A stretch of DNA of 64,000 bases from an uncultured Desulfobacterales bacterium (GCA_964393645.1 CAYMUI010000030.1:19195-83194); one strand, 5' to 3'. Counted from the stretch's first letter, positions 10,120 through 46,108 are shown. Notes: generated by a model from the letters alone, not told the origin. Made by a program: numbers and translations.

Positions 10120-10133
10120 AAGGGGGAGTGGTT

Positions 10134-11753
10134 ATGCAAAAGCAGGTTATTATTTATGACACAACACTCAGAGACGGGACTCAAGGAGAGTATATAAGCC
10201 TGTCTGCAGAAGATAAACTCAGGATTGCAAAAAAACTTGATGAGTTCGGGATTCACTACATAGAGGGTGGCTGGCCAGGTTCTAACCCAAAAGATGCCCG
10301 TTTTTTTGAAATGGCAAAGCTTGCTACTTTTAAGAACGCGAAGTTGACAGCTTTTGGAAGTACGAGAAAAGCAAATACAAAAGTGGAAGAAGATGAAAAC
10401 ATAAAGGCGTTACTGAATGCAGGTGTCAATACTGTTACTATATTTGGAAAAAGCTGGGATCTGCATGTAACAGAAATCTTAGCAACCACTTTGCAGGAAA
10501 ATCTCAACATGATCTATGAATCTGTAGCCTATCTTAAAGAAAAAGGCAAAGAAGTAATATACGATGCGGAACACTTTTTTGATGGTTACAAAAATAATAA
10601 AGAGTATACTCTGAAGACCATAGAGACAGCAATAAAAGCTGGTGCCGACTATATTGTTTTCTGCGATACCAACGGGGGTGCATTGCCTCATGAAATAGAA
10701 GCGATATTAAAAGAAGTGCTTCCTAAAATAGATATTTACACAGGAATACACGCCCATAATGATGGTGGATTAGCTGTGGCAAATTCTCTTACTGCTGTAA
10801 GATGCGGGGTAGATATGGTTCAAGGCACAATAAACGGTTACGGCGAAAGATGTGGTAATGCAGATCTCATCCCTATAATTGCTAACCTACAGCTAAAAAT
10901 GGGATACAAATGCATCCCTTCTGAAAAACTAAAGCATCTTACAGAATTATCTCGTTTTGTAAGCGAAATAGCTAACATGCCTCCTCTTCCTCAAAGGCCG
11001 TTTGTAGGAAAAAGCGCATTTGCTCATAAGGCAGGAGTTCATGTAAGTGCCATAATAAAGAATCCATCTGCTTATGAACATATTGATCCTTTTCTTGTGG
11101 GAAATAGGAGAAGAGTGCTTGTATCTGACCTTTCCGGAAAAAGCAATATAGAATACAAGGCAAAGGAGCTGGGTGTTGAACTTTCAGACAGGAAGTACAG
11201 TAAAAAGATAGTAGAAGAAATAAAAAGATTGGAAGACAAAGGTTATTATTTCGAAGCAGCAGAGGGTTCTTTATTTGTACTTATGAAAAAATTTGCCGAG
11301 AATTTTAAAGAACCTTTTAAGCTGCAGGCTCTTAGGGTAAATATTGAAAAGAATGGCTCTGAAGCGAGCGCATGTCATGCAACAATAAAGATTGCTGTGG
11401 GAGATGAAGAAGAAATTACAGCGGCAGAGGGAGATGGTCCTGTAAATGCGCTTGATAATGCGCTTAGAAAAGCCCTTTCAAGGTTTTTCCCTAATATAAA
11501 CGAAATGAAGCTTGTTGACTTTAAAGTAAGAGTAATAGACGGGGCTGATGGTACAGCAGCTAAGGTAAGGGTACAGATAGAGTCAAGAGATGAAAACGAG
11601 ATGTGGACCACCATAGGTGTTTCTGAAAACATAATAGAAGCAAGCTGGCAGGCTTTGGTGGACAGTATATTGTACAAGTTAATAAAAGACAGAGAAAAAG
11701 AATTTAGGTCTAAGAAGGAGATAGACCATGCCAGAGAAGGTAATAATATTTGA
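10134..11753 (+). CDS. cimA: (R)-citramalate synthase (LeuA-family, long form)
   Basis: [22 protein letters not shown]...[12 protein letters not shown] and a length of about 540 aa with a LeuA-dimer C-terminus fit the citramalate synthase clade. ATG 10134 is preferred over track GTG 10128 because of the SD aagggggag. Confidence 0.75.
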
Positions 11754-13266
11754 TACAACTCTCAGAGACGGGGAACAGTCTCCCGGAGCAAGCATGAATG
11801 AGGCAGAAAAATTGAGGATTGCTATGCAATTGGAAAAACTGGGAGTGGATGTGATAGAAGCTGGCTTTCCAGCAGCCTCCCAAGGAGAGTTTGAAGCAGT
11901 GAGACTTGTTGCTTCTAAGTTGAGTAATACCCAGGTTTGTGCCCTTGCCAGAACCTCAAAAGAGGACATAGATAAGGCATGGGCAGCAATTAAAGACGCT
12001 GTTAATCCGAGGATACATACATTCATAGCCACTTCAGACATCCATATGCAGTATAAGTTAAGAATGACCAAAGAACAGGTGATAAAGACAGCTGTTGAAG
12101 CTGTTAAGTACGCAAAGAAATTTACAGATAATGTGGAATTTTCTTCTGAAGATGGAACCAGAAGTGATAGAGACTTTTTATGTAAGGTTTTTGAAGCAGT
12201 CATAGATGCTGGCGCCACCACTATAAACCTTCCAGATACAGTGGGCTACATCTTACCAGACGAATATTATGAACTCATAAAATATGTAAAGCAGCACACT
12301 CCTAACATCCATAAAGTAATCTTGAGTGTCCACTGCCATAATGACCTCGGTCTTGCTACTGCAAACACTCTTGCTGGTCTCAGAGCAGGAGCAAGACAAG
12401 CAGAGGTAACTATAAATGGTATCGGTGAAAGAGCGGGTAACACTTCCCTCGAAGAAGTTGTTATGTGTATATACACTCACAAAGATAAGCTGGGACTTTC
12501 TACCGGAATAAATACAAAGTACATATATCCTACAAGCAGACTTGTGAGTATGATTACAGGTATTGTGGTTCAGCCCAACAAAGCTATTGTAGGAGCCAAT
12601 GCGTTCGCTCATGAAGCCGGGATACATCAGGATGGCGTACTTAAACATAAGCTTACCTATGAAATAATTGAACCGGAGACCATAGGATTAGACAGAAGCA
12701 AGCTCGTCTTAGGAAAGCATTCAGGAAGACATGCATTTAAGAAGAAGCTGGAGGAGATGGGATATGAATTAACAGAAGACGAGTTGAACAGGGTATTTGA
12801 GAAATTTAAAGAGCTTGCTGATAAAAGAAAGGAGCTACAAGATGAAGACATAGAAGCATTGGTGGCAGAAGAGGTTCTTAGAGTACCTGATATTTATCAA
12901 TTGGAGTACTTAAATGTTGTAAGTGGCACAGGCACTGTACCAACAGCAACGGTGAAGCTGAAGGTAAGAGGCGAGCTACTTCAAGGTGCAGGTTTTGGGG
13001 TTGGGCCTATAGATGCTACCTACAATGTGATCGCCAGTCTGACCGGCACAAAATCTAAGCTTCTGAGATTTTCGGTCAATTCTATTACAGGGGGAATGGA
13101 TGCACAGGGTGAGGTTACTGTGAGACTTCAGGAAGACGGTATCGTTGCTCTTGGAAAAGGGGCTGATCCAGACATTATTGTGGCAAGCGCAAAGGCATAC
13201 ATAAACGGATTAAACAGGTTGGAATATATGAAGACAAATCCCCCTAAGAAGGAGCAAACCCCTTAA
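11728..13266 (+). CDS. leuA: 2-isopropylmalate synthase
   Basis: 512 aa. [28 protein letters not shown] and a LeuA allosteric C-terminal domain. Confidence 0.9.
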
Positions 13267-31750: not shown

Positions 31751-33610
31751 CTAAAAAAATAACATTCTTGCTTTAGATCTCTTAATCTTTATAACAGGTC
31801 CTTTTGTTCTGCTGTAAAATTCCAGATACTTTGTTACAGTGTATTTCATATCTTTTCTTTGAGATATCTCTTGTATGCCTCTTACATCATGAAAATAGTC
31901 CACCTTTTCGTATATCTTTTTTGAAATTTCGTGCAAGTGTTCAGAACGAACCCTTTTTTCGTCTACCTCAAATCCTCTTGATTTCATGACTCTTGGTCCC
32001 GTAAATATAATAAGCGCACCTGGTTCCGCAATTATGACATCTCCTAAGGCAGCGTAACTTGCTATAGCCCCTCCAGTAGAGGGATCGGCTAAGATGGATA
32101 TAAAAGGCAAGCCGTGTTTTTTCAGTTTGTTTACTGCTGCTACCACTTTTACCATTTGCATAAGTGCTGATATTCCTTCATAAAGTCTGGCTCCTCCTGA
32201 ACAGCAAACACTTACCACGGGAAGAGCCTCTTCTATTGCGTATTCTATTGCTCTTCTGAATTTTTCCCCAAAAACCACCCCCATAGAACCACCGCAATAG
32301 TAGAACGAACTTATAGCCAAAACTACTTGAAAGTGGTTTATACGGCCTGTACCGATCACAAGCGATTCCTTAAAATCTGTTCTGCCTTCTTGTCTTGCCA
32401 GAAAGTCTCTGTAGTATTCTGTTATAGAATCTTCATCCAATAGATCATCTACGCTCAGATTTCTGTCCATTTCGTGGAATGTACCCGGATCAACGAGACA
32501 ATCTATCCATCCGCTCGCATCCAGTGGATAAGAATAACCACAGTAAGGACAGACATTGTAATTGTCCACAAGTTCTTTAAGATTTATTAGCCTTCCACAT
32601 CCTTTTTTTCCTGATTCATTGCCTTTTCCATCTCCACACTTTATAAATTCCTTTTTTACCATCTTAAGGGAAACTTCCCCGTAAGAATCGCTTACTTCTG
32701 TAAGACTGGAATAGTTAATAATCTTTATGTCCAAGGGGGGCTTTTTAAAGGCTTTTTTTATCGGCTTTTCTATGTATCTCTTTAGGTCATATATGAGACC
32801 CGTTTTTTTGTATACCCCAAATCTCATGGCTCTTTCTTCTCTTCTTCTTATCAGCTTGGCTATTTTTATCTTGAACACTTCTCTTATAGATGCTGTAAGA
32901 AACTGATAAATATTGTTTGCCATCTTGTCGCAGTCAGCCACATTTTCAGGTGAAGGCACTATGTAATCTATTACACCGAGTCTCTTTAGTTCCTTAGCAG
33001 TTGGCTTTGATATGTAAAGCGCTTCTTCTATTCGTTTAGGATCACGGAATATTATAGACGCCATACTTTCTGGAGGCGCTGTAGCATACATCGCGTCTTC
33101 CATTTGACCTCTTATGTCTGTGACCTGAATAGCTAAAGCTCCGCCACTTCCTCCCTCCCCCAATATGAGAGAGATGCTTCTTAAAGGTAGCAGAAGAAAT
33201 TCTTTTATAAGATGTGCTATAAAAAATGCTTGAAATCTCTCAGCAGAATACATTGATATGTCCGCACCAAAAGTGTCTATTATGGTGAAAACGAGGGTTT
33301 CTTCTGGGTTTTCTTTTTTTGCTTCTTTTAATAAACTCAAAATATAAGAATGGTCATCTGCTGTAAGCATTCCGTAATTTAAGACTTTTAAGTCTTGACT
33401 GCTTTTGAAATCTTCTGGTTTAGGTTTTTGCTGCCCAATAACATACATCTTCTTTTCCAAGAAGGTGCACTTGCCCGCAACCAGAGACTTGGACGGGGTT
33501 TCAAAAGGTTCGTAATCAGGGAATAGTCTGTTAATTATGTCGCTTGCCCTTGGTCTCAACAGATGTCTGGTTCTTTTTTTAAAGATATCCACAAGACTTT
33601 CTTCTTTCAT
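31751..33610 (-). CDS. Acetyl-CoA carboxylase carboxyltransferase, fused alpha (N-terminal) and beta (C-terminal) subunits
   Basis: 619 aa. The N-half carries AccA-like ILGEGGSGGALAI and LGVIDYIV. The middle has a Cys cluster (KCGDG...GCG...CPYCGY). The C-half carries AccD-like GGSMGVVFGEKF, CSGGARLYEG and ADPSTGG. Confidence 0.8.
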   Translation of the reverse strand: MKEESLVDIFKKRTRHLLRPRASDIINRLFPDYEPFETPSKSLVAGKCTFLEKKMYVIGQQKPKPEDFKSSQDLKVLNYGMLTADDHSYILSLLKEAKKENPEETLVFTIIDTFGADISMYSAERFQAFFIAHLIKEFLLLPLRSISLILGEGGSGGALAIQVTDIRGQMEDAMYATAPPESMASIIFRDPKRIEEALYISKPTAKELKRLGVIDYIVPSPENVADCDKMANNIYQFLTASIREVFKIKIAKLIRRREERAMRFGVYKKTGLIYDLKRYIEKPIKKAFKKPPLDIKIINYSSLTEVSDSYGEVSLKMVKKEFIKCGDGKGNESGKKGCGRLINLKELVDNYNVCPYCGYSYPLDASGWIDCLVDPGTFHEMDRNLSVDDLLDEDSITEYYRDFLARQEGRTDFKESLVIGTGRINHFQVVLAISSFYYCGGSMGVVFGEKFRRAIEYAIEEALPVVSVCCSGGARLYEGISALMQMVKVVAAVNKLKKHGLPFISILADPSTGGAIASYAALGDVIIAEPGALIIFTGPRVMKSRGFEVDEKRVRSEHLHEISKKIYEKVDYFHDVRGIQEISQRKDMKYTVTKYLEFYSRTKGPVIKIKRSKARMLFF

Positions 33611-36954: not shown

Positions 36955-37387
36955 AATAGTCCTTTAAGATCTTTGCATGATCAAAGGCAAGCTCTTTTGG
37001 TAAGTTATCCTTGTAAAATATTCCTGTCTCTTTGGCATCATCTCCTGCTTTTGGCATTCCCTTAGCCTGCGCCACAAATACTACAGAAATTGTGTGAAAT
37101 CTTGGGTCTCTTTTGGGATCAGAATATGCTCCAAGTTGATATTTAAGCTCTACATCAAGTCCTGTCTCTTCCTTAGCTTCTCTTACTGCTGCCTGCTCAA
37201 GACTCTCTCCGTAATCCACAAAACCTCCGGGAAGAGCCCATCCGTATGGAGGATTTTTCCTTTTTATCAGAACGATAGGAACTTTTTCTATGTCTATCAG
37301 TTCTATAATAATGTCTACCGTAGGAAAGGGGTTTTTGTATTTTTCCACTACCTTACCGCAATGCGGACATATCAGTGTCTGTTTCAT
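36932..37387 (-). CDS. NUDIX hydrolase with N-terminal zinc-ribbon-like CPHCG
   Basis: 151 aa. Nudix box [24 protein letters not shown]. It overlaps both neighbours (23 nt and 35 nt). Confidence 0.8.
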
Positions 37388-39254
37388 TCTTCTCCCTCTT
37401 TTTCATATAAATCTGCAACGCAATAATAGATGCTGGTGTGATTCCAGGAATTCTGGAGGCTTGTCCCAATGTTAAAGGTCTTATTTTGGACAGTTTTTCA
37501 ATTGCTTCTTTTGTCAGGCCATGCACCTTGGTATAGTCTATGTCTTCAGGAATTCTTATTTCTTCCATCTTTTTCAACTGCTCAACTTGTTTTTCTTGCC
37601 TTTTTATATACCCTTCATATTTTATTCTTATCTCCACTTCATCTGCCACCTGAGAGTCCAAATCTTTTAATTGTTTATCAAACACGCTTAGCTGTGCAAG
37701 AGATATTTCTGCTCTTTTTAAAAGCTGAGCCAGAGAAGTCACATTTTTTATAGGAGCTGTTCCCATTGCTTTAAGTTTGTCTTGGATTCCAGGTTCGGGC
37801 CTTATCTTAAACTCATTTAACCTTTTTATAAGAGATTCCACTTTTCTTCTTTTTTCACAGAATGCTTTATATGTCTCCTCATCTACAAGCCCGAGTTTGT
37901 ATCCGATATCCATAAGCCTGAAGTCTGCATTATCTTCTCTTAATAAAAGTCTATACTCTGCCCTTGAAGTAAACATTCTGTATGGCTCATCCGTGCCTTT
38001 TGTGACGAGATCATCAATAAGGACGCCAATGTAAGCCTGAGATCTGTCTAATATAAGCGGCTGTTCCCCTCTTATTTTGAGCACAGCGTTTATTCCTGCC
38101 ATAAGACCCTGTGCAGCGGCTTCTTCGTATCCTGTGGTTCCATTTATTTGGCCAGCAAAGAAGAGCCCTTCTATTAATTTGGTTTCCAGATTTGGTTTTA
38201 TCTGCACAGGATTTATGTAATCGTGTTCGATTCCATAACCTGGTCTTATAATTCTTGCCTTTTCTAATCCAGGGATAGATCTTACCATTTTAATCTGTAC
38301 ATCCACGGGAAGACTTGTAGATATGCCGTTTGGATATATTTCAACTGTATCTAACCCTTCTGGTTCCAAGAATATCTGATGTCGTGGTCTGTCCGGGAAT
38401 TTTACTATCTTATCTTCAATAGAAGGGCAGTATCTTACTCCTCTTGCTTTTATAATCCCTGTGTAAAGAGGAGATCTGTCAAGCCCCTCTCTTATTATTT
38501 CGTGGGTTTTGGGAGTGGTGTAGGTTATATAACATGGTAACTGAGGAAGTTTTATCTCCTTTGTGCTAAAAGAGAACGGTTTAGGATTTTCGTCTCCTTT
38601 CTGGACCTCAAGATTTGAGTAGTCAATAGTTTTTCCGTCAAGTCTGGGGGTTGTACCTGTTTTAAAACGATCTATCTTAAAACCTAATTCCATCAAATTC
38701 TCTGAGAGCTTGTTAGATGGAGGATCTCCCATCCTTCCCGCAGGAAAATGGGTAAGGCCTATGTGTATAACTCCTCTTAAAAATGTTCCTGTGGTCAGGA
38801 TAACTGTTTTGGAAAAAAACTTTTCATTTATGTGAGTCTCTACTCCGTATACCTTTCTGTCTTTTACAAGAAGTCTGTCCACCATTGCCTGTCTGATATG
38901 GATGTTTTCCTGTTTTTCTAAAATCCTTCTCATTCTTCTTTTGTAAAGATACATGTCATTTTGGGTTCTTGTTCCCTGTACCGCAGGGCCTTTTTTAGTA
39001 TTAAGTCTCCTAAATTGGATTGCTGTTTCATCCGCGTTTTTTGCCATTTCTCCACCTAAGGCATCTATCTCTTTTACAAGATGCCCTTTTGCAAGCCCTC
39101 CAATAGCTGGATTACAGCTCATCTGAGCTATGTTGTCTACATTAATGGTCAACAAAAGCACTTTATGACCCATCCTTGCTATTGCAAGGGCTGCTTCACA
39201 GCCTGCATGACCAGCTCCAACAACTATTGCATCGTATGTTTCTTCAGCACACAT
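37353..39254 (-). CDS. mnmG: tRNA uridine 5-carboxymethylaminomethyl modification enzyme
   Basis: 633 aa. FAD motif [25 protein letters not shown]-like [10 protein letters not shown] and [16 protein letters not shown]. Confidence 0.95.
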
Positions 39255-42200
39255 TTTCTGCTAATAGCTCTCTTTCTTTTAAGTCGAATTTTTTTGCAAT
39301 CAAAAGCTCAAATTCTCTTCCAATGTATTGTCTGTTTTGTTTTAGATATAGTTTTATATCATTCCAATAGCTGTTCAGTTCTGAAAGACTCTTTAGCTCT
39401 GCTAATCTTTGGTCTATCTCTGAGATTTTTTCTCTTTTAAGCGTATCTCTTCTTAATTCATATACATCTATAATCCTGTTTTTTATCTCTTCTGGAATTT
39501 GCTCTGACTCACTTCTCTTTATTATGTCTTTAAGAGCCAGATAAAGCTGATGAAAGTCTTTTGCCTGATCCATCTTTTCTTTTGCTTTTGTCACTATCTC
39601 TTCAAATAGTTCCTTTGCTCTTTTTTCAAAAGCCTCCTTTAACATGATCTTGTAGTCATCTGAGTAGAAGGGATAAGAATTGAGCTCATTTAAGAGTTTT
39701 TCGTAGTAATTTCTAAGCCTTTCCATTTCTTTTATTTCTTTTATAAGAGCTATTTTTTCCTGAATGTTCAACTCTTCTTTAAACCTTACTGTCAGAACAT
39801 TTGGAAATTCTTCTTTTACGAAGAATATTCCTTCTTTTTCTGAAAACAGAGAATAAGGATCTTCCCTATAACCCCATATTTTTTCTATAGAAAGCCCGTT
39901 TAAATAATTATTTATTGCTTCATATCTTTTGTCTATTATTTGACACATATCCAAAAAGTTGATGGATACAGGAGAACGGCTCAAATCAAAGGTTTCTGCT
40001 GATATAAGACAAAGCAGAAGCAATTTTATCTGATTCTCGTATCCCATGTAATTCGTGACATTTTCATATCCAAAGAGGCGGACTTTGTCATCTACCAGCC
40101 AGTTTAAGATATAGTGTCTGATATACTCGGGAAGCGATTGAAATGTTCTGTATATCCTGTAGGCCTCAAACATCTCCTTTTCAAATGTCGAATATCCTAT
40201 GCTCAGGAATCCTTTTTGTCTGTAAATGAGATTTATAGGTTTATCCATTAAAAGCTTTGCCAGTTCTGGGAATTCCACATACCTTATACCTCTTAGTCTA
40301 AGTATCCTTTCCAAGGCATAGATCATTCTGCCCATGCTTATAAGATTTCCGTGTGTATTTTCACTGATTTTATCTTCGTCATTTGCCAGACCTTTCTCTA
40401 AGTACTCTTTTACCTGAAGGTAAAGAGCCCCTCTTTTTGAGAAGAGTTTGTTCATATATCCCATCAAGGTCATATCCTGAGCTATTATTCTGTCACATAT
40501 CTGTTTTATCTTAAAGAGCCTTCCTGCCAGATCTTCTAACAGAAGGTCTTCTCTGATAGCCGATAACATAATGAATGAAAAAATAAAGAACGCATCAAAA
40601 AGCTGTTGATCTCTTCTGTCAAGTATTTCCTTTATAGCAAAGAATGAAAACTCTCCCCTTATCATATGATGAAGCATACTGTGATATTTTACCAAAAATA
40701 CAAGATATTCCTCCTCTTCTGCTTCTATTAAGTAGAGTTTCTTCATATTTTCTTGTCTTATAAACACAGCTCCTGCATCTCCAAGGTCTGCGGGATTGAA
40801 TCTTCCTTTATACTTCTCTCTTAAGTAAGGCACTCTTCCTATTTCTTGGAAGAAGAAGGCCTTAATAAGCGCATTGAAAAGCACTGGTTTTTTGTTTCTC
40901 AGGGATTCCAGCATGTTTATCAAACTGCTTAATTGAGCATCACTTACTCCCACAGTTCCTGTAGCCATAAGTCCGAATTCCTTTTTAGCAAGCTTGTGCA
41001 AGAATTCTTTATCTTGAAACTCTTCTTTTTCATGTCTTATCAGGGCATAAAGCTTTTTTGTAGTGTTGAGGATATATTTAAGAGGAGAAAGCCTCATGTA
41101 TATATGCCAAGAGAGATTCATCTGTTGTAAGGTTTTAAAAAACGGAAACAGAAAGTTTAGCACAGATGGGGCATAGTTATATAATGCCTCTAAGTTTGTA
41201 TAAAAAGAATCCGGTTGAAACATGTTTTTTAAAAATACCTTTCTGAGCTCTTCCCTTATTTTCTCCACTTCTTTTACCCAATTTTTGTGTCTTAAAGGCA
41301 GAAGCCTTTCTTCCATAAAATGGAGAATACCTTTATGAGCTTGATAAAATAGTTCCACTTCCGAGAATCTTTTTTCCAGTTCTCTAAGTCCTTCGTTAGA
41401 GATGCGATGTATCTTTGGAGATTTTGAAAATGAGCTGTAAAATGCGTTCAGTACCTTTATGTTGTTATCCAGATCCATGTATCCGACAGCCAGAATCTTC
41501 TTTTCTGTTTCAAGTTTTAGATATAATCCCGTACCCACGATGATAGTAAATCTGTTTTTGTTTAATTGTTCTGACAGATTCCTAATGCCTTTTGAATCTA
41601 AGTGGTTCAGATTTATATGAGAAGTTTCTAAGTCGATCTTTTTGACAAATTCATCTGTTTGCTCTTGAGCAATCTCTTCTAATAATGGATTGAAATTTAT
41701 TATGTCCGCTGGCGAAGAGTTTATGGTAATCCACAAAAGCAAAAATACATTCTTACTGCTCATCTTTCTAAACACACGGGCTGTTCCGTGCAGGTCTGAA
41801 CGAAGGATCTTCCTGTAAAAGGTAGTAATTTGTAAAGGATCAGATTTAAGATATATGTCTTCAAATTGATTCATTATGTCTATTAAGGTTCTCATGTTAT
41901 AGATGTCTTTAAGATTTTCTGGATCATAATCTGCTAAGGCTTCGAGCTCTTTTTCACCCTTCTCTTTTATTTCTTGCCAGTTGTTCAGGAACCTATGATA
42001 GCCCATCATCATGAGTACCCTTTTAATGACCTTTCTTCTAAGGCCCTCTATAGAGTCTGCTCCCTCGTATACAACGGCCTGCCAGTCTACATCTTTGCTT
42101 ATAACCGCTCTTACCATGAGATCATATATTCTAAAAAGCTCTCTCACCTCTTCTGTTTCAACCGTCCTTCCAGTAGATGCTTCCATCTCTGCAAAACTCA

Positions 42201-43902
42201 TCAGCCGGAAGTATCTAAGAAAGTTAAGCGCAGTTCTTATCCCATATTTATTTGCCGCATCTATTACAGGTTTGAGGGAAGCTTCATTTATCTTTCCGGC
42301 TATTATTCTCCTTATAGGACCGTGGCCTAAGGAAGTCAGGAACAGTTCTTTTAAGAGTTCGATATTAAAGCCAAAAAGTCCGAGCAGTTCTAAGTTTTCT
42401 ATAAGCTTTGTGTTTACACCTTCTATCTGTTCAGGATTAAAATAATGAATAAGTTCGGCTATCTTATTTTTTCTTTTTACTAAACTTAGTACTGCTTTTA
42501 TTCCTTTATGTCTCCTGTTTTTATAGTACAGGGGGGTTCTTAAACGATCCATGAAAATTTTGGGTATATTCTCATATGCTTTTACATCTTCTTTAAGTCT
42601 CTTTACTGCCTCTATTACTTTTAGCACATACTCAAAAGAGTTTCTGTAATCTGGCATTAATTCTGGCGACGCCCCGTATATCCTGCTCTCTAATATGTCT
42701 TTTGTAATAACGGATAGGCTAAATGGAAGGGCTTTCTTTTTGCCTTGATAAACAAGCATGTATTCAGGCTCGTAGTCGTAAAATTCAAATCTTTTTTCCC
42801 ACTCCTTTTTTAGCGCCTCAGGAGTAATGGCGCAGAAATTCTTTTTTTCCAGATACCTGTCAAACAGTTCGATCCATACCTTCTTTTGATCTTTTGTGAC
42901 ATATTTTCTGGGTAAGGAAAATTCCAGATACGGAAGATCATTTATTTCCTCAAGGCTTAGAGATGAGATGTCTTTTCCTTTTAAGAGCTTATTTACAAGT
43001 TCTGGCTCTACATATATCCCTCTCAGATAACTGTAAAATTCAAATTCAGTTATGTATACGGGATTTCTGTTAAATCTGTATTTGTGTTTTGTTTTAAAAA
43101 GATGAGTAAAAAGCGCAAATCTTTTTTCTTCATCTTCTGTTTTAAATTTCACCTTTATAAGCCTGCATCTATCAGGAAAATATCTTTCAGAAATAACAAA
43201 CAGCTCTCCTTCCGGGACCAATGACTTATATATCTTTGTCATCACATAATTTGCGTATTCTTTTAACCGGCTTTTCTCTCTTCTTATAATCTCATATATG
43301 TCGTCGGTTATGATAAATAGATCTAAATTTTGCTTTATATCCTTTAGCTTGGCTATTGAATCTACAGGAATAAAATTGTGTTCCAAAAATATATAGGAAA
43401 GCTCTTGAAATATAAGATCTGTAGGTCTTAAAAATATGCCTATGTTATAGCTTTCTTTGGTTCGTTGCTTTCTGTACTCCTTAATAAAGCCAACTATTTG
43501 ATCCACTTTCACTTTTATGTCTGTTAGAGAGCTGGAGACAAAATGAAGAGGAATGAGATAATATGGTTTCCCCTTTTTGGAAAATCTTATTAATAGTCCT
43601 AATTTTTTGTAAATTTCGTTTAATTTTTTATAGTGCTTTTTTATAGAATTTTCATTTCTTAAGTCTATAGACAAAAGCAGGCCCAATTCTTCTTTTGTGA
43701 GCCGTTCGTATCCCTCGGTAATTCCAAACCCATAGGCATCTCCACCGAATCTGCTGGGAATCCTGGCAGGATGTCTCAAGGCCGGCAGTGTGCCTAAGGG
43801 AATGTCTTCTGGATCTATACCCAGCTCTTCAAATTCTGCCGGACTTATAAATCCAAATGGATCTTTTTCCCTCAAAAAGAGATAGGATGGGCTTGCTTCC
43901 AT
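39244..43902 (-). CDS. Giant (1552 aa) uncharacterised cytoplasmic protein
   Basis: It is an uninterrupted ORF and the only long frame across 4.6 kb. It starts 10 nt after the radA stop and overlaps the mnmG start by 11 nt. I found no TM segments, no Walker A and no canonical catalytic motif. It is highly helical with K/E/L/Y/F-rich composition. Confidence 0.85.
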   Translation of the reverse strand: MEASPSYLFLREKDPFGFISPAEFEELGIDPEDIPLGTLPALRHPARIPSRFGGDAYGFGITEGYERLTKEELGLLLSIDLRNENSIKKHYKKLNEIYKKLGLLIRFSKKGKPYYLIPLHFVSSSLTDIKVKVDQIVGFIKEYRKQRTKESYNIGIFLRPTDLIFQELSYIFLEHNFIPVDSIAKLKDIKQNLDLFIITDDIYEIIRREKSRLKEYANYVMTKIYKSLVPEGELFVISERYFPDRCRLIKVKFKTEDEEKRFALFTHLFKTKHKYRFNRNPVYITEFEFYSYLRGIYVEPELVNKLLKGKDISSLSLEEINDLPYLEFSLPRKYVTKDQKKVWIELFDRYLEKKNFCAITPEALKKEWEKRFEFYDYEPEYMLVYQGKKKALPFSLSVITKDILESRIYGASPELMPDYRNSFEYVLKVIEAVKRLKEDVKAYENIPKIFMDRLRTPLYYKNRRHKGIKAVLSLVKRKNKIAELIHYFNPEQIEGVNTKLIENLELLGLFGFNIELLKELFLTSLGHGPIRRIIAGKINEASLKPVIDAANKYGIRTALNFLRYFRLMSFAEMEASTGRTVETEEVRELFRIYDLMVRAVISKDVDWQAVVYEGADSIEGLRRKVIKRVLMMMGYHRFLNNWQEIKEKGEKELEALADYDPENLKDIYNMRTLIDIMNQFEDIYLKSDPLQITTFYRKILRSDLHGTARVFRKMSSKNVFLLLWITINSSPADIINFNPLLEEIAQEQTDEFVKKIDLETSHINLNHLDSKGIRNLSEQLNKNRFTIIVGTGLYLKLETEKKILAVGYMDLDNNIKVLNAFYSSFSKSPKIHRISNEGLRELEKRFSEVELFYQAHKGILHFMEERLLPLRHKNWVKEVEKIREELRKVFLKNMFQPDSFYTNLEALYNYAPSVLNFLFPFFKTLQQMNLSWHIYMRLSPLKYILNTTKKLYALIRHEKEEFQDKEFLHKLAKKEFGLMATGTVGVSDAQLSSLINMLESLRNKKPVLFNALIKAFFFQEIGRVPYLREKYKGRFNPADLGDAGAVFIRQENMKKLYLIEAEEEEYLVFLVKYHSMLHHMIRGEFSFFAIKEILDRRDQQLFDAFFIFSFIMLSAIREDLLLEDLAGRLFKIKQICDRIIAQDMTLMGYMNKLFSKRGALYLQVKEYLEKGLANDEDKISENTHGNLISMGRMIYALERILRLRGIRYVEFPELAKLLMDKPINLIYRQKGFLSIGYSTFEKEMFEAYRIYRTFQSLPEYIRHYILNWLVDDKVRLFGYENVTNYMGYENQIKLLLLCLISAETFDLSRSPVSINFLDMCQIIDKRYEAINNYLNGLSIEKIWGYREDPYSLFSEKEGIFFVKEEFPNVLTVRFKEELNIQEKIALIKEIKEMERLRNYYEKLLNELNSYPFYSDDYKIMLKEAFEKRAKELFEEIVTKAKEKMDQAKDFHQLYLALKDIIKRSESEQIPEEIKNRIIDVYELRRDTLKREKISEIDQRLAELKSLSELNSYWNDIKLYLKQNRQYIGREFELLIAKKFDLKERELLAENVC

Positions 43903-43911
43903 GACATCTTT

Positions 43912-45270
43912 TTAAAATAGTAGGTCAAATAGCTGTTGCACTGATTCTATTCTTAGGATTTCTATCGGAAATTCTAAGGTCATCTTTGTTTCAATCCCTG
44001 TCTTTGCGGTGATGCATTTTGAAAAACCGAGTTTTACCGCTTCCTTTATCCTTAAGTCAGGATTGCTCACACCTCGCACTTCACCTGCGAGTCCTACTTC
44101 CCCAAAAAGAACCACATCTCTGTCCACCGGTTTATCCAACAGACTGGATATGATTGCAGTAACTATTCCAAGATCTACCGCTGGCTCATCCACTTTTATC
44201 CCCCCCGCCACATTTACAAATATATCATGGTCTCCGAGCCTAAGTCCAAGTCTTTTCCACAATACAGCTACGAGCAAAGAAACTCTGTTGTGGTCTACTC
44301 CTACCGTGGTTCTTCTGGGGACCCCTAAATGAGAGGGGCTTACCAGAGCTTGTATTTCCAGAAAAACAGGTCTTGTTCCTTCCATACACGGCACCACTAC
44401 TGAACCGGAAACTCCCTCCGGCCTCTGCTCCAGAAATATACGAGACGGGTTAGATACCTGATGAAGACCAGTGTTTTTCATCTCAAACACACCTATTTCG
44501 TTGGTAGGTCCGTATCTGTTTTTCACAGCCCTCAGTATCCTGTACATATGATTTGTATCCCCTTCAAAGTAGAGCACCGTGTCTACCAGATGTTCCAGAA
44601 CCTTTGGTCCAGCAATAAGCCCTTCTTTTGTAACATGACCTATCAAAAATATAGATATACCAGATTGTTTTGCCATAATTTGCAGCCTGTAAGCTGTTTC
44701 TCTCACTTGAGCCACACTTCCAGGAGTAGAGGACAAGGTATCGGTATAAAGGGTCTGTACAGAATCCACCACTAATACAGCAGGTTTGATCAGCTTTATT
44801 GTTTCTAATAGTTCTTCTAAATTAGCACCTATGGATATATACAGCTTTGAAGCATCCACCTGAAGTCTTTCTGCCCTCATTTTTATTTGCTGGAGCGATT
44901 CTTCTCCTGAAAGATAAAGACAGGTAATTCCTTTTTTGCTGAGGCTGTTTAAAACCTGAAGCATGAGCGTTGATTTTCCAATACCTGGATCGCCTCCTAT
45001 TAGGATTACCGAGCCGGGTACTATGCCACCCCCCAAGATCCTGTCAAATTCCTCTATGTCTGTTCTTATTCTGTTTTCAGCTTCAAGGGAGATCTCTTTT
45101 ACCGGAATTGGAGGAATGATTTCCTTGGCTGCTTCTTTTTTTGTGTTTTTTTCTAATATCTTTTCCACCAAACTGTTCCACTGGCCACATCCAGGGCATC
45201 TGCCCATCCACTTTGGGGTCTGGTATCCACAACTTTCACATACAAAGACCGTTTCTTTTTGCTTTGGCAT
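43912..45270 (-). CDS. radA: DNA repair protein RadA/Sms
   Basis: Zinc ribbon CESCGY...CPGCGQW, Walker A GGDPGIGKST, KNRYGP motif and a Lon-like C-domain. ATG 45270 (AGGA 8 nt upstream) is preferred over track TTG 45300. Confidence 0.95.
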   Translation of the reverse strand: MPKQKETVFVCESCGYQTPKWMGRCPGCGQWNSLVEKILEKNTKKEAAKEIIPPIPVKEISLEAENRIRTDIEEFDRILGGGIVPGSVILIGGDPGIGKSTLMLQVLNSLSKKGITCLYLSGEESLQQIKMRAERLQVDASKLYISIGANLEELLETIKLIKPAVLVVDSVQTLYTDTLSSTPGSVAQVRETAYRLQIMAKQSGISIFLIGHVTKEGLIAGPKVLEHLVDTVLYFEGDTNHMYRILRAVKNRYGPTNEIGVFEMKNTGLHQVSNPSRIFLEQRPEGVSGSVVVPCMEGTRPVFLEIQALVSPSHLGVPRRTTVGVDHNRVSLLVAVLWKRLGLRLGDHDIFVNVAGGIKVDEPAVDLGIVTAIISSLLDKPVDRDVVLFGEVGLAGEVRGVSNPDLRIKEAVKLGFSKCITAKTGIETKMTLEFPIEILRIESVQQLFDLLF

Positions 45271-45274
45271 AAGC

Positions 45275-46108
45275 TTAGTCCTGTTTGTTTTCGCCCCCAA
45301 TCCTGCGGGGAGTTGGCTCGTATATTACAGATGGGTGCTGTTTAAGAGGTTGAGGAAACAGGTTCATGAGTTGATATATTTCTACCGGCATGTCTGTACT
45401 TACAGGAAGACCAAGTTTTTTTGCTTCCTCACATGTAATGGGATAATCGTGTGTCCATCTTCCTTGTGAAAGGATCTCTGCAAGTTCTTCCGCCTTTTGT
45501 TCCGTATATTTTCCCGAAAGAAGCTCTTTTAACTGATTTTTCATTTGATTAAGAGCCTTTTCGGATACATCCGCCATTATAAGAGTCTTGTCTTCTATCT
45601 TATCTATGGGCTTCTCTTTTTTTATCTTTACAATAGATGCTGCTGGATACTGGCCGATCTGCGGATCTACTGGGCCTAAAACCGCGTGTTCATCCATGAC
45701 TATCTCGTCAGCTGCTAATGCTATGAGTGTTCCTCCACTCATAGCGTAGTGGGGAATAAATGCTGTGGTTTTTGCTTTATGCCTTTTTAATGCCTTTGCA
45801 ATTTGAAGAGCTGCCAATACCAATCCTCCAGGAGTGTGCAAGATGATGTCTATGGGAACATCTTCATCTGTTAGGTGAATTGCTCTTATTACCTGTTCCG
45901 AATCGTTTACATCAATAAATCTCATGACTGGAAATCCAAAAAAACTCATGGTTTCTTGCCTGTGAATAAGAAGTATAACCCTTGATCCTCTTTCTTTTTC
46001 TATTTTTTCTATCATCTTCTGCCTTGCTGCCTCTAAGAATTTTTGTCTTAAGAGGGGTTGAAGGCTCATGAGTATGAAGAAAAGCCAAAATATGTCAAAA
46101 CCGCTCAT
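45275..46108 (-). CDS. SDH-family Clp-fold serine protease, membrane anchored
   Basis: 277 aa. It has an N-terminal hydrophobic segment (FDIFWLFFILMSL). LHTPGGLVLAALQIAKAL and AMSGGTLIALAADEIVM resemble the serine dehydrogenase proteinase / ClpP-fold family. Confidence 0.65.
   Translation of the reverse strand: MSGFDIFWLFFILMSLQPLLRQKFLEAARQKMIEKIEKERGSRVILLIHRQETMSFFGFPVMRFIDVNDSEQVIRAIHLTDEDVPIDIILHTPGGLVLAALQIAKALKRHKAKTTAFIPHYAMSGGTLIALAADEIVMDEHAVLGPVDPQIGQYPAASIVKIKKEKPIDKIEDKTLIMADVSEKALNQMKNQLKELLSGKYTEQKAEELAEILSQGRWTHDYPITCEEAKKLGLPVSTDMPVEIYQLMNLFPQPLKQHPSVIYEPTPRRIGGENKQD

What the first reader, a model, noticed from the sequence alone, without database searches (positions are those of the whole stretch)
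39244..43902. 1552-aa orphan protein translationally wired between radA and mnmG
A single uninterrupted 4.66-kb ORF encodes a protein with no TM helix, no P-loop and no catalytic signature that I can recognise by eye. It is nevertheless embedded in a tight housekeeping operon. Its start is 10 nt after the radA stop, and its last 11 nt overlap the mnmG start. The composition is helical and repeat-like (K/E/L/F/Y-rich), but no long internal repeat is visible. Two weak hints exist. The N-terminal third has a segment resembling the distal half of a class I methyltransferase fold (NLDLFIITDDIYEIIRRE...LVPEGELFVISERYF) without a glycine-rich SAM loop. The C-terminal third has an HD-domain-like segment with substituted metal ligands, reported separately. 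A giant conserved-context protein of unknown function is the best candidate here for an undescribed activity, plausibly linked to nucleic-acid or tRNA metabolism given its neighbours.
Basis: partly seen in the sequence, partly recalled or inferred. Interest (0 to 1): 0.7.

Follow-up and report, generated by a model that had tools for sequence, protein, structure and literature searches.

The report
Giant decayed methyltransferase/HD-like protein family
The 1552-residue gene between radA and mnmG is real and evolves as slowly as its housekeeping neighbours, but it is not an orphan: it belongs to an undescribed protein family of sulfate-reducer-type bacteria (Desulfobacterota) that is built from worn-down copies of known enzyme folds and whose function is still unknown.

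Summary
No model in Pfam, NCBIfam, PADLOC or PHROGs matches it.

It is not an orphan. More than 130 full-length homologues of about 1,550-1,600 aa exist. The family is in 181 species-level genomes, almost all Desulfatiglandales-type Desulfobacterota MAGs. dN/dS is about 0.05, like radA and mnmG.

The rhomboid-protease-radA-X-mnmG-NUDIX-YhdP block is kept only in relatives with at least 58% identity. Elsewhere X usually follows an ABC-transporter/acyl-CoA-synthetase operon. So the neighbours say little about function.

AlphaFold models are confident (pLDDT 88-91). With profile comparisons they give this layout:
- a conserved N-terminal domain;
- a class I methyltransferase-like domain that has lost the glycine-rich SAM loop and the alphaB-beta3 segment;
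- two diverged copies of a module made of an HD-like helical domain and a small alpha/beta domain;
- a helical tail.

HD-like copy B matches true HD proteins and the HD region of the Aquifex CC-adding enzyme, but HD has become QD and the last Asp is gone.

A roughly 780-aa sister family carries one such module plus an intact methyltransferase.

Best reading: a constrained pseudoenzyme-like binding scaffold derived from such a methyltransferase. A non-canonical catalytic activity is not excluded.

The parts
39244..43902 (-). Whole ORF X, 1552 aa plus stop
   Evidence: full-length homologues; dN/dS about 0.05
43543..43902 (-). Residues 1-120: the most conserved part of the protein. It has the motif GT..A..HP..L.SRFGGNAYGFG..E, then three helices and a beta-hairpin (LGLLIRFS..GKPYYLIP). 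It looks winged-helix-like; its role is unknown.
   Evidence: Invariant columns; secondary structure of the model. A search with an N-terminal profile found only fragments of the same family. The PDB hit 1o54 at E 0.75 is not significant.
43033..43542 (-). Residues about 121-290: degenerate class I methyltransferase-like Rossmann domain. Kept: D181/S182 (post-I), LDLVIL (motif II), LKPxGE (motif III). Lost: motif I is reduced to IG..T..DD, and alphaB-beta3 is deleted.
   Evidence: Foldseek PDB hits to Rv2258c, 4htf, 3dtn, 9fcy and others, probability 0.97-1.0, target TM 0.43-0.50. hhalign to the sister-family MTase, E 3.1e-5, E 4.6e-4 with the motif alignment shown. Column counts.
42613..43032 (-). 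Residues about 291-430: alpha/beta region after the MTase-like core; not assigned
   Evidence: Model secondary structure; aligned with the C-terminal part of the sister MTase region
41833..42612 (-). Residues about 431-690: helical domain 'HD-like A', with invariant E519, G526, H527, R532, G536, K537, E572. It is the diverged duplicate of HD-like B and has no HD dyad at all.
   Evidence: hhalign 482-625 vs 1029-1164, E 3.3e-4; module A vs module B, E 2.8e-4 over 360 columns; columns
41413..41832 (-). Residues about 691-830: small alpha/beta domain A (EFHGTGH ... IINFNP ... GTGF ... Y.D.D; G706, T707, N736, N738 invariant). Its topology resembles a nucleotidyltransferase head; this is not proven.
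   Evidence: Secondary structure; columns; hhalign 735-810 vs 1314-1376, E 1.6e-3; no significant match to the E. coli Cca, GlnD or GlnE heads
40933..41412 (-). Residues about 831-990: helical linker, including the conserved LH.LAQREFGPMATG.VG
40423..40932 (-). Residues about 991-1160: 'HD-like B' (FQ[DE]IGR ... NPAD..AGA ... LV..H.LLHH.IRGE ... SAIREDL.LEDLA). HD has become QD, the third His is Asp in the main clade, H1074 is kept, and the terminal Asp is lost.
   Evidence: The profile hits P0256 (E 1.1e-5 in 1.84e9 proteins), which carries Pfam HD at 7e-11. PDB profile hit to the HD region 318-377 of the CC-adding enzyme 3wfo, E 0.018. The same entries are the Foldseek top hits. Ligand columns.
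40108..40422 (-). Residues about 1161-1265: helical region with invariant G1191, E1198, R1199
39763..40107 (-). Residues about 1266-1380: small alpha/beta domain B (D.VRIFGYE ... ENQIKLLL ... LNFL ... G....VLSV.F.D)
   Evidence: conserved in the sister family (WY.E ... QIKLL ... LDF)
39247..39762 (-). Residues about 1381-1552: bundle of long helices, a coiled-coil-like tail
   Evidence: Model; only weak coiled-coil-type PDB sequence hits (F-BAR, prefoldin)
43912..45300 (-). radA, upstream gene; its stop lies 9 nt before the X start
37353..39254 (-). mnmG, downstream gene; its start overlaps the last 11 nt of X

Best explanation
X is a member of an undescribed family of cytoplasmic proteins of about 1,570 residues, confined to Desulfobacterota (mainly Desulfatiglandales-type lineages).

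Shown:
- The family shares its building blocks with a smaller, equally uncharacterised sister family of about 780 aa. That family has one HD-like helical domain, one small alpha/beta domain and an intact class I SAM methyltransferase.
- In X the methyltransferase-derived domain sits at the N-terminus. It has lost the glycine-rich SAM loop and the alphaB-beta3 segment.
- The HD-like/alpha-beta module is present twice.
- The canonical H...HD...D ligand set is broken in both copies.
- A helical tail has been added.
- The whole length is under purifying selection as strong as that on radA and mnmG.

Inferred:
- X no longer performs the canonical methyl-transfer or metal-dependent phosphohydrolase reactions. 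It acts as a rigid pseudoenzyme-like scaffold that binds a ligand or partner through the surviving conserved pockets: the GGNAYGFG loop, H527/R532/K537, N736/N738/D810, the cluster QD/H1074/H1079/RGE/E1118-D1124, and E1198/R1199.
- It probably oligomerises through the tail.
- Because HD-like B resembles the body of class II tRNA nucleotidyltransferases, a nucleotide or the 3' end of an RNA is the most plausible ligand class.
- Its place in the radA-mnmG operon is a clade-specific arrangement. It ensures co-expression with housekeeping genes but does not define the function.
For: Family and constraint: more than 130 full-length homologues; 181 species genomes; only 134 hits at E<=1e-3 among 1.84e9 representatives; dN/dS 0.046 against 0.030 and 0.058 for the neighbours; conservation is even along the protein.

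Structure: confident models with pLDDT 87.6/90.9 and pTM 0.84/0.82, which indicate a compact multidomain body.

MTase-like domain: Foldseek; homology to the sister MTase (E 3.1e-5; motif-level alignment showing the lost GPGGG loop and the roughly 18-residue deletion); column counts; no GxGxG.

HD-like domain: (probability 95.6, E 1e-8 to P0257).

Module B against the sister module: E 4.3e-21.

Duplication: (E 2.8e-4; negative controls 0.3-0.44).

Synteny is not conserved. It is conserved only within the window's own clade.
Against: - Loss of activity is inferred from motifs only. HD-like B keeps D/E1020, H1074, H1079, E1118/D1119 and E1123/D1124, which could still form a metal site.
- Very strong constraint over 1,552 residues would also fit a true enzyme.
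- No ligand, partner or oligomeric state was tested.
- Net charge is about neutral in every domain, which gives no support for general nucleic-acid binding.
- The module A/module B duplication rests on moderate E-values.
Confidence: 0.45

Rival explanations
1. X is an active enzyme with non-canonical centres. The QD/H1074/H1079/E1118-D1119 cluster in HD-like B would bind a metal, or the NxN...D set of the alpha/beta domain would bind a nucleotide. X would then process a nucleotide, a second messenger or an RNA end by new chemistry.
For: Near-invariant polar clusters at exactly the former active-site helices. Housekeeping-level dN/dS over the whole length. The more distant clade and the sister family keep more of the HD ligands. 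The same HD-like domain is fused to radical-SAM, B12-binding and PHP domains in giant proteins, which suggests a catalytic setting.
Against: The first His of the HD dyad and the terminal Asp are replaced throughout the family. There is no DxD. No Pfam HD, NTase or MTase model reaches even E 5 in 29 members.
Confidence: 0.25
2. X works with its neighbours. It would be an accessory factor of tRNA U34 modification (MnmG) or of RadA-dependent recombination, translationally coupled to them.
For: 9-nt gap and 11-nt overlap, with no terminator-like site on the coding strand between the genes. The same wiring is found in relatives of 58-87% identity. mnmG lies downstream of X in 6 of 84 loci from several subclades. 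HD-like B resembles the body of a tRNA nucleotidyltransferase.
Against: 78 of 84 loci have no mnmG and 82 of 84 have no radA within 6 kb. The commonest neighbours are a Liv-type ABC ATPase (34 loci), an acyl-CoA synthetase (13), and oligoribonuclease or HdrB-like genes on the opposite strand. MnmG and RadA are universal, whereas X is confined to one bacterial lineage.
Confidence: 0.1
3. X is still a SAM-dependent methyltransferase. The conserved N-terminal GGNAYGFG loop would replace the lost motif I in trans, and the two modules would serve as substrate-recognition arms.
For: The MTase-like fold keeps the acidic post-I residue (D181), motif II and motif III. The sister family pairs the same module with an intact MTase. 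The glycine-rich N-terminal loop is the most conserved element of the protein.
Against: Motif I is reduced to a single Gly, and the alphaB-beta3 adenine-binding segment is deleted relative to the sister MTase. No MTase Pfam model matches any of 29 members. Target TM-scores are only 0.43-0.50.
Confidence: 0.1
4. X is lineage-specific filler, a mis-called or decaying ORF.
For: No family annotation anywhere; low-complexity-like K/E/L-rich composition.
Against: Full-length conservation from 87% to 25% identity. dN/dS is about 0.05. High-confidence compact fold.
Confidence: 0.01

Closest known systems
Uncharacterised sister family of about 780-890 aa (P0257-like; sources name it only 'SAM-dependent methyltransferase'; MAGs of Myxococcota, Deltaproteobacteria and Proteobacteria)
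   Same: It has the same HD-like helical domain plus small alpha/beta domain (X 900-1380 against sister 8-430, E 4e-21). Its methyltransferase domain is homologous to X residues about 80-330 (E 3e-5).
   Different: The sister has one module, not two, and the MTase is C-terminal rather than N-terminal. Its SAM motif I is intact (Pfam Methyltransf_12/25/11), and it keeps four of the five HD ligand positions. It has no conserved GGNAYGFG N-domain and no helical tail. It is itself unstudied, and its gene context is not informative.
Class I SAM-dependent methyltransferases (structural neighbours Rv2258c 5F8E, CmoM 4HTF, MM_2633 3DTN, NodS 3OFK)
   Same: Rossmann-like fold; acidic residue after beta2; FDxV-like motif II; LKPGG-like motif III.
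   Different: No glycine-rich motif I, alphaB-beta3 deleted, not detected by any Pfam MTase model, and embedded in a 1,552-aa protein.
HD domain (body region) of class II tRNA nucleotidyltransferases: Aquifex aeolicus CC-adding enzyme, PDB 3WFO-3WFR (the identity of these entries rests on my own knowledge and on PMC3925840)
   Same: These entries are the top Foldseek hits for the C-terminal half (probability 1.0, about 400 aligned columns, 14-17% identity). An independent sequence-profile hit aligns FHDIGK...EHDKVGA...LVRHH with FQDIGR...AD..AGA...LVR.H (E 0.018).
   Different: HD has become QD and the terminal Asp is lost. There is no GG/DxD head signature and no PolyA_pol Pfam match. The E-values are weak. 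Domain order and number differ.
GlnD (PII uridylyltransferase/uridylyl-removing enzyme) HD domain
   Same: The pattern and spacing around FHDIAKGRGGDH..GA....LVAWLVRQHLLM align with the X/sister consensus.
   Different: Pairwise hhalign reaches only E 0.0055-0.18, which is not significant. X has no ACT domains, and the NTase motif is not detectable.

Membership tests
Class I SAM-dependent methyltransferase | Rossmann-like seven-stranded MTase fold | tested here: inconclusive
   Foldseek probability 0.97-1.0 to many MTases, but E is only 1e-3 to 3e-2 and target TM 0.43-0.50. One strand region (alphaB-beta3) is missing relative to the sister MTase.
Class I SAM-dependent methyltransferase | Glycine-rich motif I (E/DxGxGxG) forming the SAM loop | tested here: not met
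   The consensus is IG[LIV][LVF]T.xDD, with only G155 conserved. There is no GxGxG in the protein. It aligns to the sister family's IVEIGPGGG.
Class I SAM-dependent methyltransferase | Acidic residue at the end of beta2 (ribose contact) and motifs II/III | tested here: met
   D181 (D34, E5 of 43), S182, D194, LKPxGE with G232
Class I SAM-dependent methyltransferase | SAM binding and methyl transfer | not testable with these tools
   Needs biochemistry
HD-domain metal-dependent phosphohydrolase superfamily | Sequence/fold homology to HD domains | tested here: met
   The profile of X 430-1400 hits P0256 at E 1.1e-5 in 1.84e9 proteins, and P0256 matches Pfam HD at 7e-11. PDB profile hit to the HD region of 3wfo, E 0.018. 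Foldseek hits to 3wfo-r and, weakly, to phosphodiesterases. No direct Pfam HD hit for X.
HD-domain metal-dependent phosphohydrolase superfamily | H...HD...D metal-ligand set | tested here: not met
   Copy B: the HD dyad is Q33/R5/H2 followed by D31/E9; the terminal Asp column is S/L/A; the third His is Asp in the main clade. Copy A: no dyad at all.
Class II nucleotidyltransferase (CCA/CC-adding enzyme, poly(A) polymerase) | Pol-beta-type head with GG...DxD and a third carboxylate | tested here: not met
   The alpha/beta domains carry HGT...NFN...D810 and FGYE...[ND]F...D1376, with no DxD. No PolyA_pol Pfam hit. hhalign to the E. coli Cca head is not significant.
Class II nucleotidyltransferase (CCA/CC-adding enzyme, poly(A) polymerase) | Head-neck-body-tail architecture | tested here: inconclusive
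GlnD/GlnE-type nucleotidyltransferase regulators | NTase domain + GlnD_UR_UTase helical domain + HD (+ACT) | tested here: not met
   No Pfam or NCBIfam match. hhalign to E. coli GlnD gives E 0.0055-0.18, restricted to the HD motif; GlnE gives E 0.5.
Functional partner of RadA/MnmG (conserved operon) | Gene neighbourhood conserved across the family | tested here: not met
   radA is adjacent in 2 of 84 loci and mnmG in 6 of 84. The arrangement is conserved only at 58% identity or more.
Anti-phage defence or phage protein | Match to PADLOC or PHROGs models | tested here: not met
   0 families at E<=1

The most novel reading that the evidence does not exclude
The replaced residues are not decay but a new active site. 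X, and with it the sister MTase family and the giant radical-SAM/PHP proteins that share the domain, would define a new branch of the HD superfamily with a Gln/Asp/His/Glu centre. This centre would work next to a methyltransferase-derived domain on a nucleotide or RNA substrate. That would give Desulfatiglandales-type bacteria an essential, lineage-specific nucleic-acid or nucleotide-processing enzyme of 1,550 residues.
Probability: 0.2. Interest if true: 0.7.

Novelty: new variant of a known kind. Interest (0 to 1): 0.5.

Why it matters
X is a 4.7-kb gene kept under the same constraint as radA and mnmG in a whole order of sulfate-reducing, aromatic-degrading bacteria. It must therefore do something important, yet no curated family covers any part of it.

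This work turns 'no recognisable signature' into a concrete domain map. It identifies a smaller sister family with an intact methyltransferase and lists the conserved residues to mutate. That makes the family experimentally approachable.

X is also a clear example of how enzyme folds (MTase, HD) are recycled into large, probably non-catalytic proteins. And it shows that tight operon wiring can be clade-specific and can mislead guilt-by-association annotation.

Tried and rejected
- Curated family searches on X, and Pfam on 29 family members at relaxed thresholds, found nothing consistent (Pfam, NCBIfam, PADLOC, PHROGs).
- PDB sequence searches with the single protein and with the full-length profile gave only coiled-coil noise.
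- hhalign of X profiles against E. coli GlnD, GlnE and Cca was not significant. Only the HD motif of GlnD aligned as expected.
- A ribonucleotide reductase R2 hit (E 0.004) was judged a chance helical resemblance, because Foldseek did not support it.
- Functional inference from synteny was rejected after surveying 84 loci. The context of the sister family is also uninformative.
- An N-terminal-domain profile search returned only fragments of the same family.
- Per-domain net charge is about neutral, so it gives no support for general nucleic-acid binding.
- The promoter/terminator scan was at or below chance. tRNA and Rfam scans found nothing near the gene.
- Literature searches found no description of the family.


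Full report
**Observation.**
The window carries an uninterrupted ATG-initiated ORF at 39244..43902 on the minus strand, encoding 1552 residues.
- The gene upstream (43912..45300) is radA (TIGR00416, E 7e-178). The gene downstream (37353..39254) is mnmG (TIGR00136, E 1.7e-278).
- The radA TAA is followed by 9 nt and then the ATG of X. The mnmG ATG at 39254 lies 11 nt before the end of X, stop codon included.
- These three genes sit in a co-directional array: rhomboid, SDH-type ClpP-like protease, radA, X, mnmG, NUDIX, YhdP/AsmA-like, fused AccA-AccD.
- A consensus scan shows no terminator-like site on the coding strand between radA, X and mnmG. The scan as a whole is at or below chance.
- X has no Walker A, no GxGxG, no HD dipeptide and no convincing TM segment. 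It is L/E/K/I/F/Y-rich.
- Pfam, NCBIfam, PADLOC and PHROGs return nothing.

**Not an orphan, and strongly constrained.**
- A search of 5.8 billion clustered proteins returned 132 hits. The 120 listed are nearly all full length (about 1,520-1,600 aa) and run from 87% to 29% identity. All are unnamed or 'hypothetical', and where a name exists they come from Deltaproteobacteria/Thermodesulfobacteriota MAGs.
- A scan of one genome per GTDB species found the gene in 181 species. The 80 loci returned are almost all labelled Desulfatiglandales, Desulfatiglans, Desulfatiglandaceae, Ca. Desulfacyla, or loosely 'Desulfobacteraceae/Deltaproteobacteria'.
- An exhaustive HMM search with a profile of residues 430-1400 against 1.84 billion representatives found only 134 proteins at E<=1e-3. 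The family is real but narrow.
- Conservation is even along the whole protein.
- Against the closest relative (87% identity), dN/dS is about 0.046, compared with 0.030 for mnmG and 0.058 for radA in the same pair of genomes. dS is near saturation, so the numbers are approximate.
- A 1,201-aa variant aligns from residue about 15 to about 1300 at 25% identity, E 1.5e-90.

**Gene context.**
- In relatives of 87, 74, 68 and 58% identity the whole block rhomboid-protease-radA-X-mnmG-NUDIX-YhdP is kept, including the short X/mnmG overlap.
- Outside that clade it is not. Among 84 loci with up to 6 kb of flank, radA is adjacent in 2 and mnmG is downstream in 6.
- The commonest upstream neighbour is a co-directional Liv-type ABC ATPase (34 loci) or an AMP-binding acyl-CoA synthetase (13 loci) from one transporter cluster.
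- The commonest downstream neighbours are oligoribonuclease (12 loci) and an HdrB/CCG-like gene (10 loci), both on the opposite strand.
- The distant subfamilies sit near iPGM and HtrA-like genes.

X is typically the last gene of whatever co-directional operon lies upstream. The radA/mnmG association is a clade-specific arrangement and does not support a shared pathway.

**Structure.**
Two AlphaFold2 models were built on 98-sequence alignments. Both are confident: residues 1-800 have pLDDT 87.6 and pTM 0.84; residues 751-1552 have pLDDT 90.9 and pTM 0.82. The high pTM points to a compact multidomain body.
- Foldseek against the PDB with the N-terminal half returns only class I SAM-dependent methyltransferases. 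These include Rv2258c (winged helix plus MTase), CmoM 4HTF, 3DTN and NodS, with probability 0.97-1.0, E 1e-3 to 3e-2 and target TM 0.43-0.50.
- With the C-terminal half, the top thirteen meaningful hits are all chains of 3WFO-3WFR (probability about 1.0, best E 7e-3, about 330-420 columns, 13-17% identity). Weak hits to cyclic-nucleotide phosphodiesterases, which have the HD fold, follow.
- From my own knowledge and from PMC3925840, 3WFO-3WFR are the Aquifex aeolicus class II CC-adding tRNA nucleotidyltransferase.

**The HD-like domain.**
- In the exhaustive profile search, the hits outside the family all match profile positions about 555-720, which correspond to X 985-1150.
- One of them, P0256 (248 aa, E 1.1e-5), is a bona fide HD protein (Pfam HD, E 7e-11).
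- A profile of this region built without P0256 or GlnD hits the HD region of 3WFO (residues 318-377) at E 0.018. FHDIGK...EHDKVGA...LVRHH aligns with FQDIGR...AD..AGA...LVR.H. These are the same PDB entries that Foldseek found independently from the model.
- E. coli GlnD aligns over the same motifs, but only at E 0.0055-0.18.
- Column counts show how the ligand set has changed. The His of the HD dyad is Q in 33 of 43 sequences (R5, H2, M2, S1). The Asp is kept as D31/E9. The next His is Asp in the main clade but His in the 29%-identity clade. H1074 is kept (41 of 43). The terminal Asp column is S/L/A.
- New near-invariant acidic pairs appear one helical turn further on: E1118-D1119 and E1123-D1124.

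So this is an HD-superfamily domain whose canonical metal site is broken. A different site cannot be excluded.

**Internal duplication.**
- Profile self-comparison aligns 482-625 with 1029-1164 (E 3.3e-4) and 735-810 with 1314-1376 (E 1.6e-3), colinearly.
- As whole modules, 400-870 against 871-1400 gives E 2.8e-4 over 360 columns. Unrelated segment pairs score 0.3-0.44.
- Each module is a helical HD-like domain followed by a small alpha/beta domain.
- Copy A has no HD dyad but keeps the His equivalent to H1074 (H527), inside an invariant GH....R...GK motif.
- The alpha/beta domains have the order beta - G[T/Y] - alpha - alpha - beta - helical insert - beta hairpin. Conserved residues are HGT...NFN...D810 in copy A and FGYE...[ND]F...D1376 in copy B.
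- This order, and their position next to an HD-like 'body', recall the head of class II nucleotidyltransferases. But there is no DxD, and no significant similarity to the Cca, GlnD or GlnE heads was found.

I leave the fold of the alpha/beta domains unassigned.

**A sister family links the pieces.**
- Three of the distant hits (P0253, P0257, P0258; 730-806 aa) combine the HD-like region with a C-terminal class I methyltransferase that Pfam recognises (Methyltransf_12/25/11, E 1e-8 to 1e-13).
- A search with P0257 found 45 relatives of about 720-895 aa. They are named at most 'SAM-dependent methyltransferase' and come from MAGs of Myxococcota, Deltaproteobacteria and Proteobacteria.
- Profile-profile comparison gives E 4.3e-21 (probability 99.4) for X 900-1380 against sister 8-430.
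- It gives E 3.1e-5 (probability 73) for X residues about 80-330 against the sister methyltransferase. Cross-controls score 0.3-0.44.
- In that alignment the sister's IVEIGPGGGVVLDLL...IIGLDxS lies over X's xxIGxxTxxDDLIxxEL...FIxIDSx. X also lacks about 18 residues that form alphaB-beta3 in the sister.
- X keeps the acidic post-I residue (D181), motif II (LDLVIL) and motif III (LKPxGE).

X and the sister family therefore share the same two building blocks in permuted order. In X the methyltransferase has lost the elements that bind SAM, the module has been duplicated, and a conserved N-terminal domain and a helical tail are present.

The same HD-like domain also occurs in proteins of 3,000-5,000 aa, together with B12-binding, radical-SAM and PHP domains.

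**Interpretation.**
What is shown:
- the family, its distribution and its constraint;
- the domain map;
- the homology of the N-terminal third to methyltransferases and of residues 991-1160 to HD domains;
- the absence of the defining catalytic motifs of both families;
- the lack of conserved synteny.

What is inferred:
- X no longer carries out the canonical reactions and serves as a rigid binding scaffold whose conserved pockets hold a ligand or partner.
- By analogy with the nucleotidyltransferase body, that ligand is possibly a nucleotide or an RNA end.
- I give this reading 0.45.
- A non-canonical enzyme (0.25) is the main rival. It is favoured by the very strong constraint and by the conserved polar clusters at the former active-site helices.
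- A role tied to MnmG or RadA (0.1) and a still-functional methyltransferase (0.1) are less likely, for the reasons given above.
- Near-neutral net charge in all domains gives no independent support for nucleic-acid binding.

**Novelty and verdict.**
- No curated family, solved structure or paper found here covers this protein.
- It is built from known folds, so I class it as a new variant of known kinds rather than categorically new.
The labels 'orphan' and 'conserved context', and the functional link to the neighbours, are not.
- Interest is moderate (0.5). It is an essential-looking, completely uncharacterised 1,550-residue family that now has a testable domain map, but there is no evidence yet for a new mechanism.

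Noticed in passing
window 31751..33610 (-): A single 619-aa ORF combines an AccA-like carboxyltransferase alpha region (residues 14-265) with the AccD zinc ribbon and beta region (residues 337-544). It is a fused AccA-AccD acetyl-CoA carboxylase carboxyltransferase. The same fusion follows YhdP in relatives L005 and L093.
   Followed up: partly
X residues about 1060-1130 (window about 40513..40725, -): A profile of the HD-like B region hits the ribonucleotide reductase R2 small subunit in the PDB at E 0.004-0.03 over 72 columns. X E1118 falls on the column of an R2 iron-ligand Asp. Foldseek did not list R2, so this is probably a chance helical resemblance.
   Followed up: partly
P0231 (3010 aa), P0246 (3318 aa), P0252 (5075 aa); no loci fetched: Giant proteins from metagenomes carry the same degenerate HD-like domain together with B12-binding, radical-SAM and PHP domains. 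This architecture is not described in the libraries searched.
   Followed up: partly
P0257-like proteins; loci L087, L090, L091: A small sister family (45 hits) of proteins of about 720-895 aa has an HD-like domain, an alpha/beta domain and an intact class I methyltransferase. It is annotated only through the methyltransferase, and the first His of its HD dyad is replaced by L/S/M. Its gene context is variable.
   Followed up: partly
X residues 1-120 (window 43543..43902, -): The most conserved element of the protein is a glycine-rich loop, SRFGGNAYGFG..E, which the model predicts with lower confidence (pLDDT 67-74). It occurs in no other protein architecture. The PDB match of 'GKPYYLIP' to the TrmI-like methyltransferase 1O54 is not significant (E 0.75).
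   Followed up: partly
window 10128..11753 and 11728..13266 (+): Two adjacent, slightly overlapping LeuA/HMGL-like synthase genes (HMGL-like + HCS_D2 + LeuA_dimer). They are presumably an isopropylmalate synthase and a citramalate/homocitrate-type paralogue.
   Followed up: no
L075 and L077 (long-read Desulfatiglandales MAGs): The X homologue is split or shortened in these loci (for example P0116, 1225 aa, on a 1.15-Mb contig). This is most likely frameshift error in the assemblies rather than real pseudogenes.
   Followed up: no
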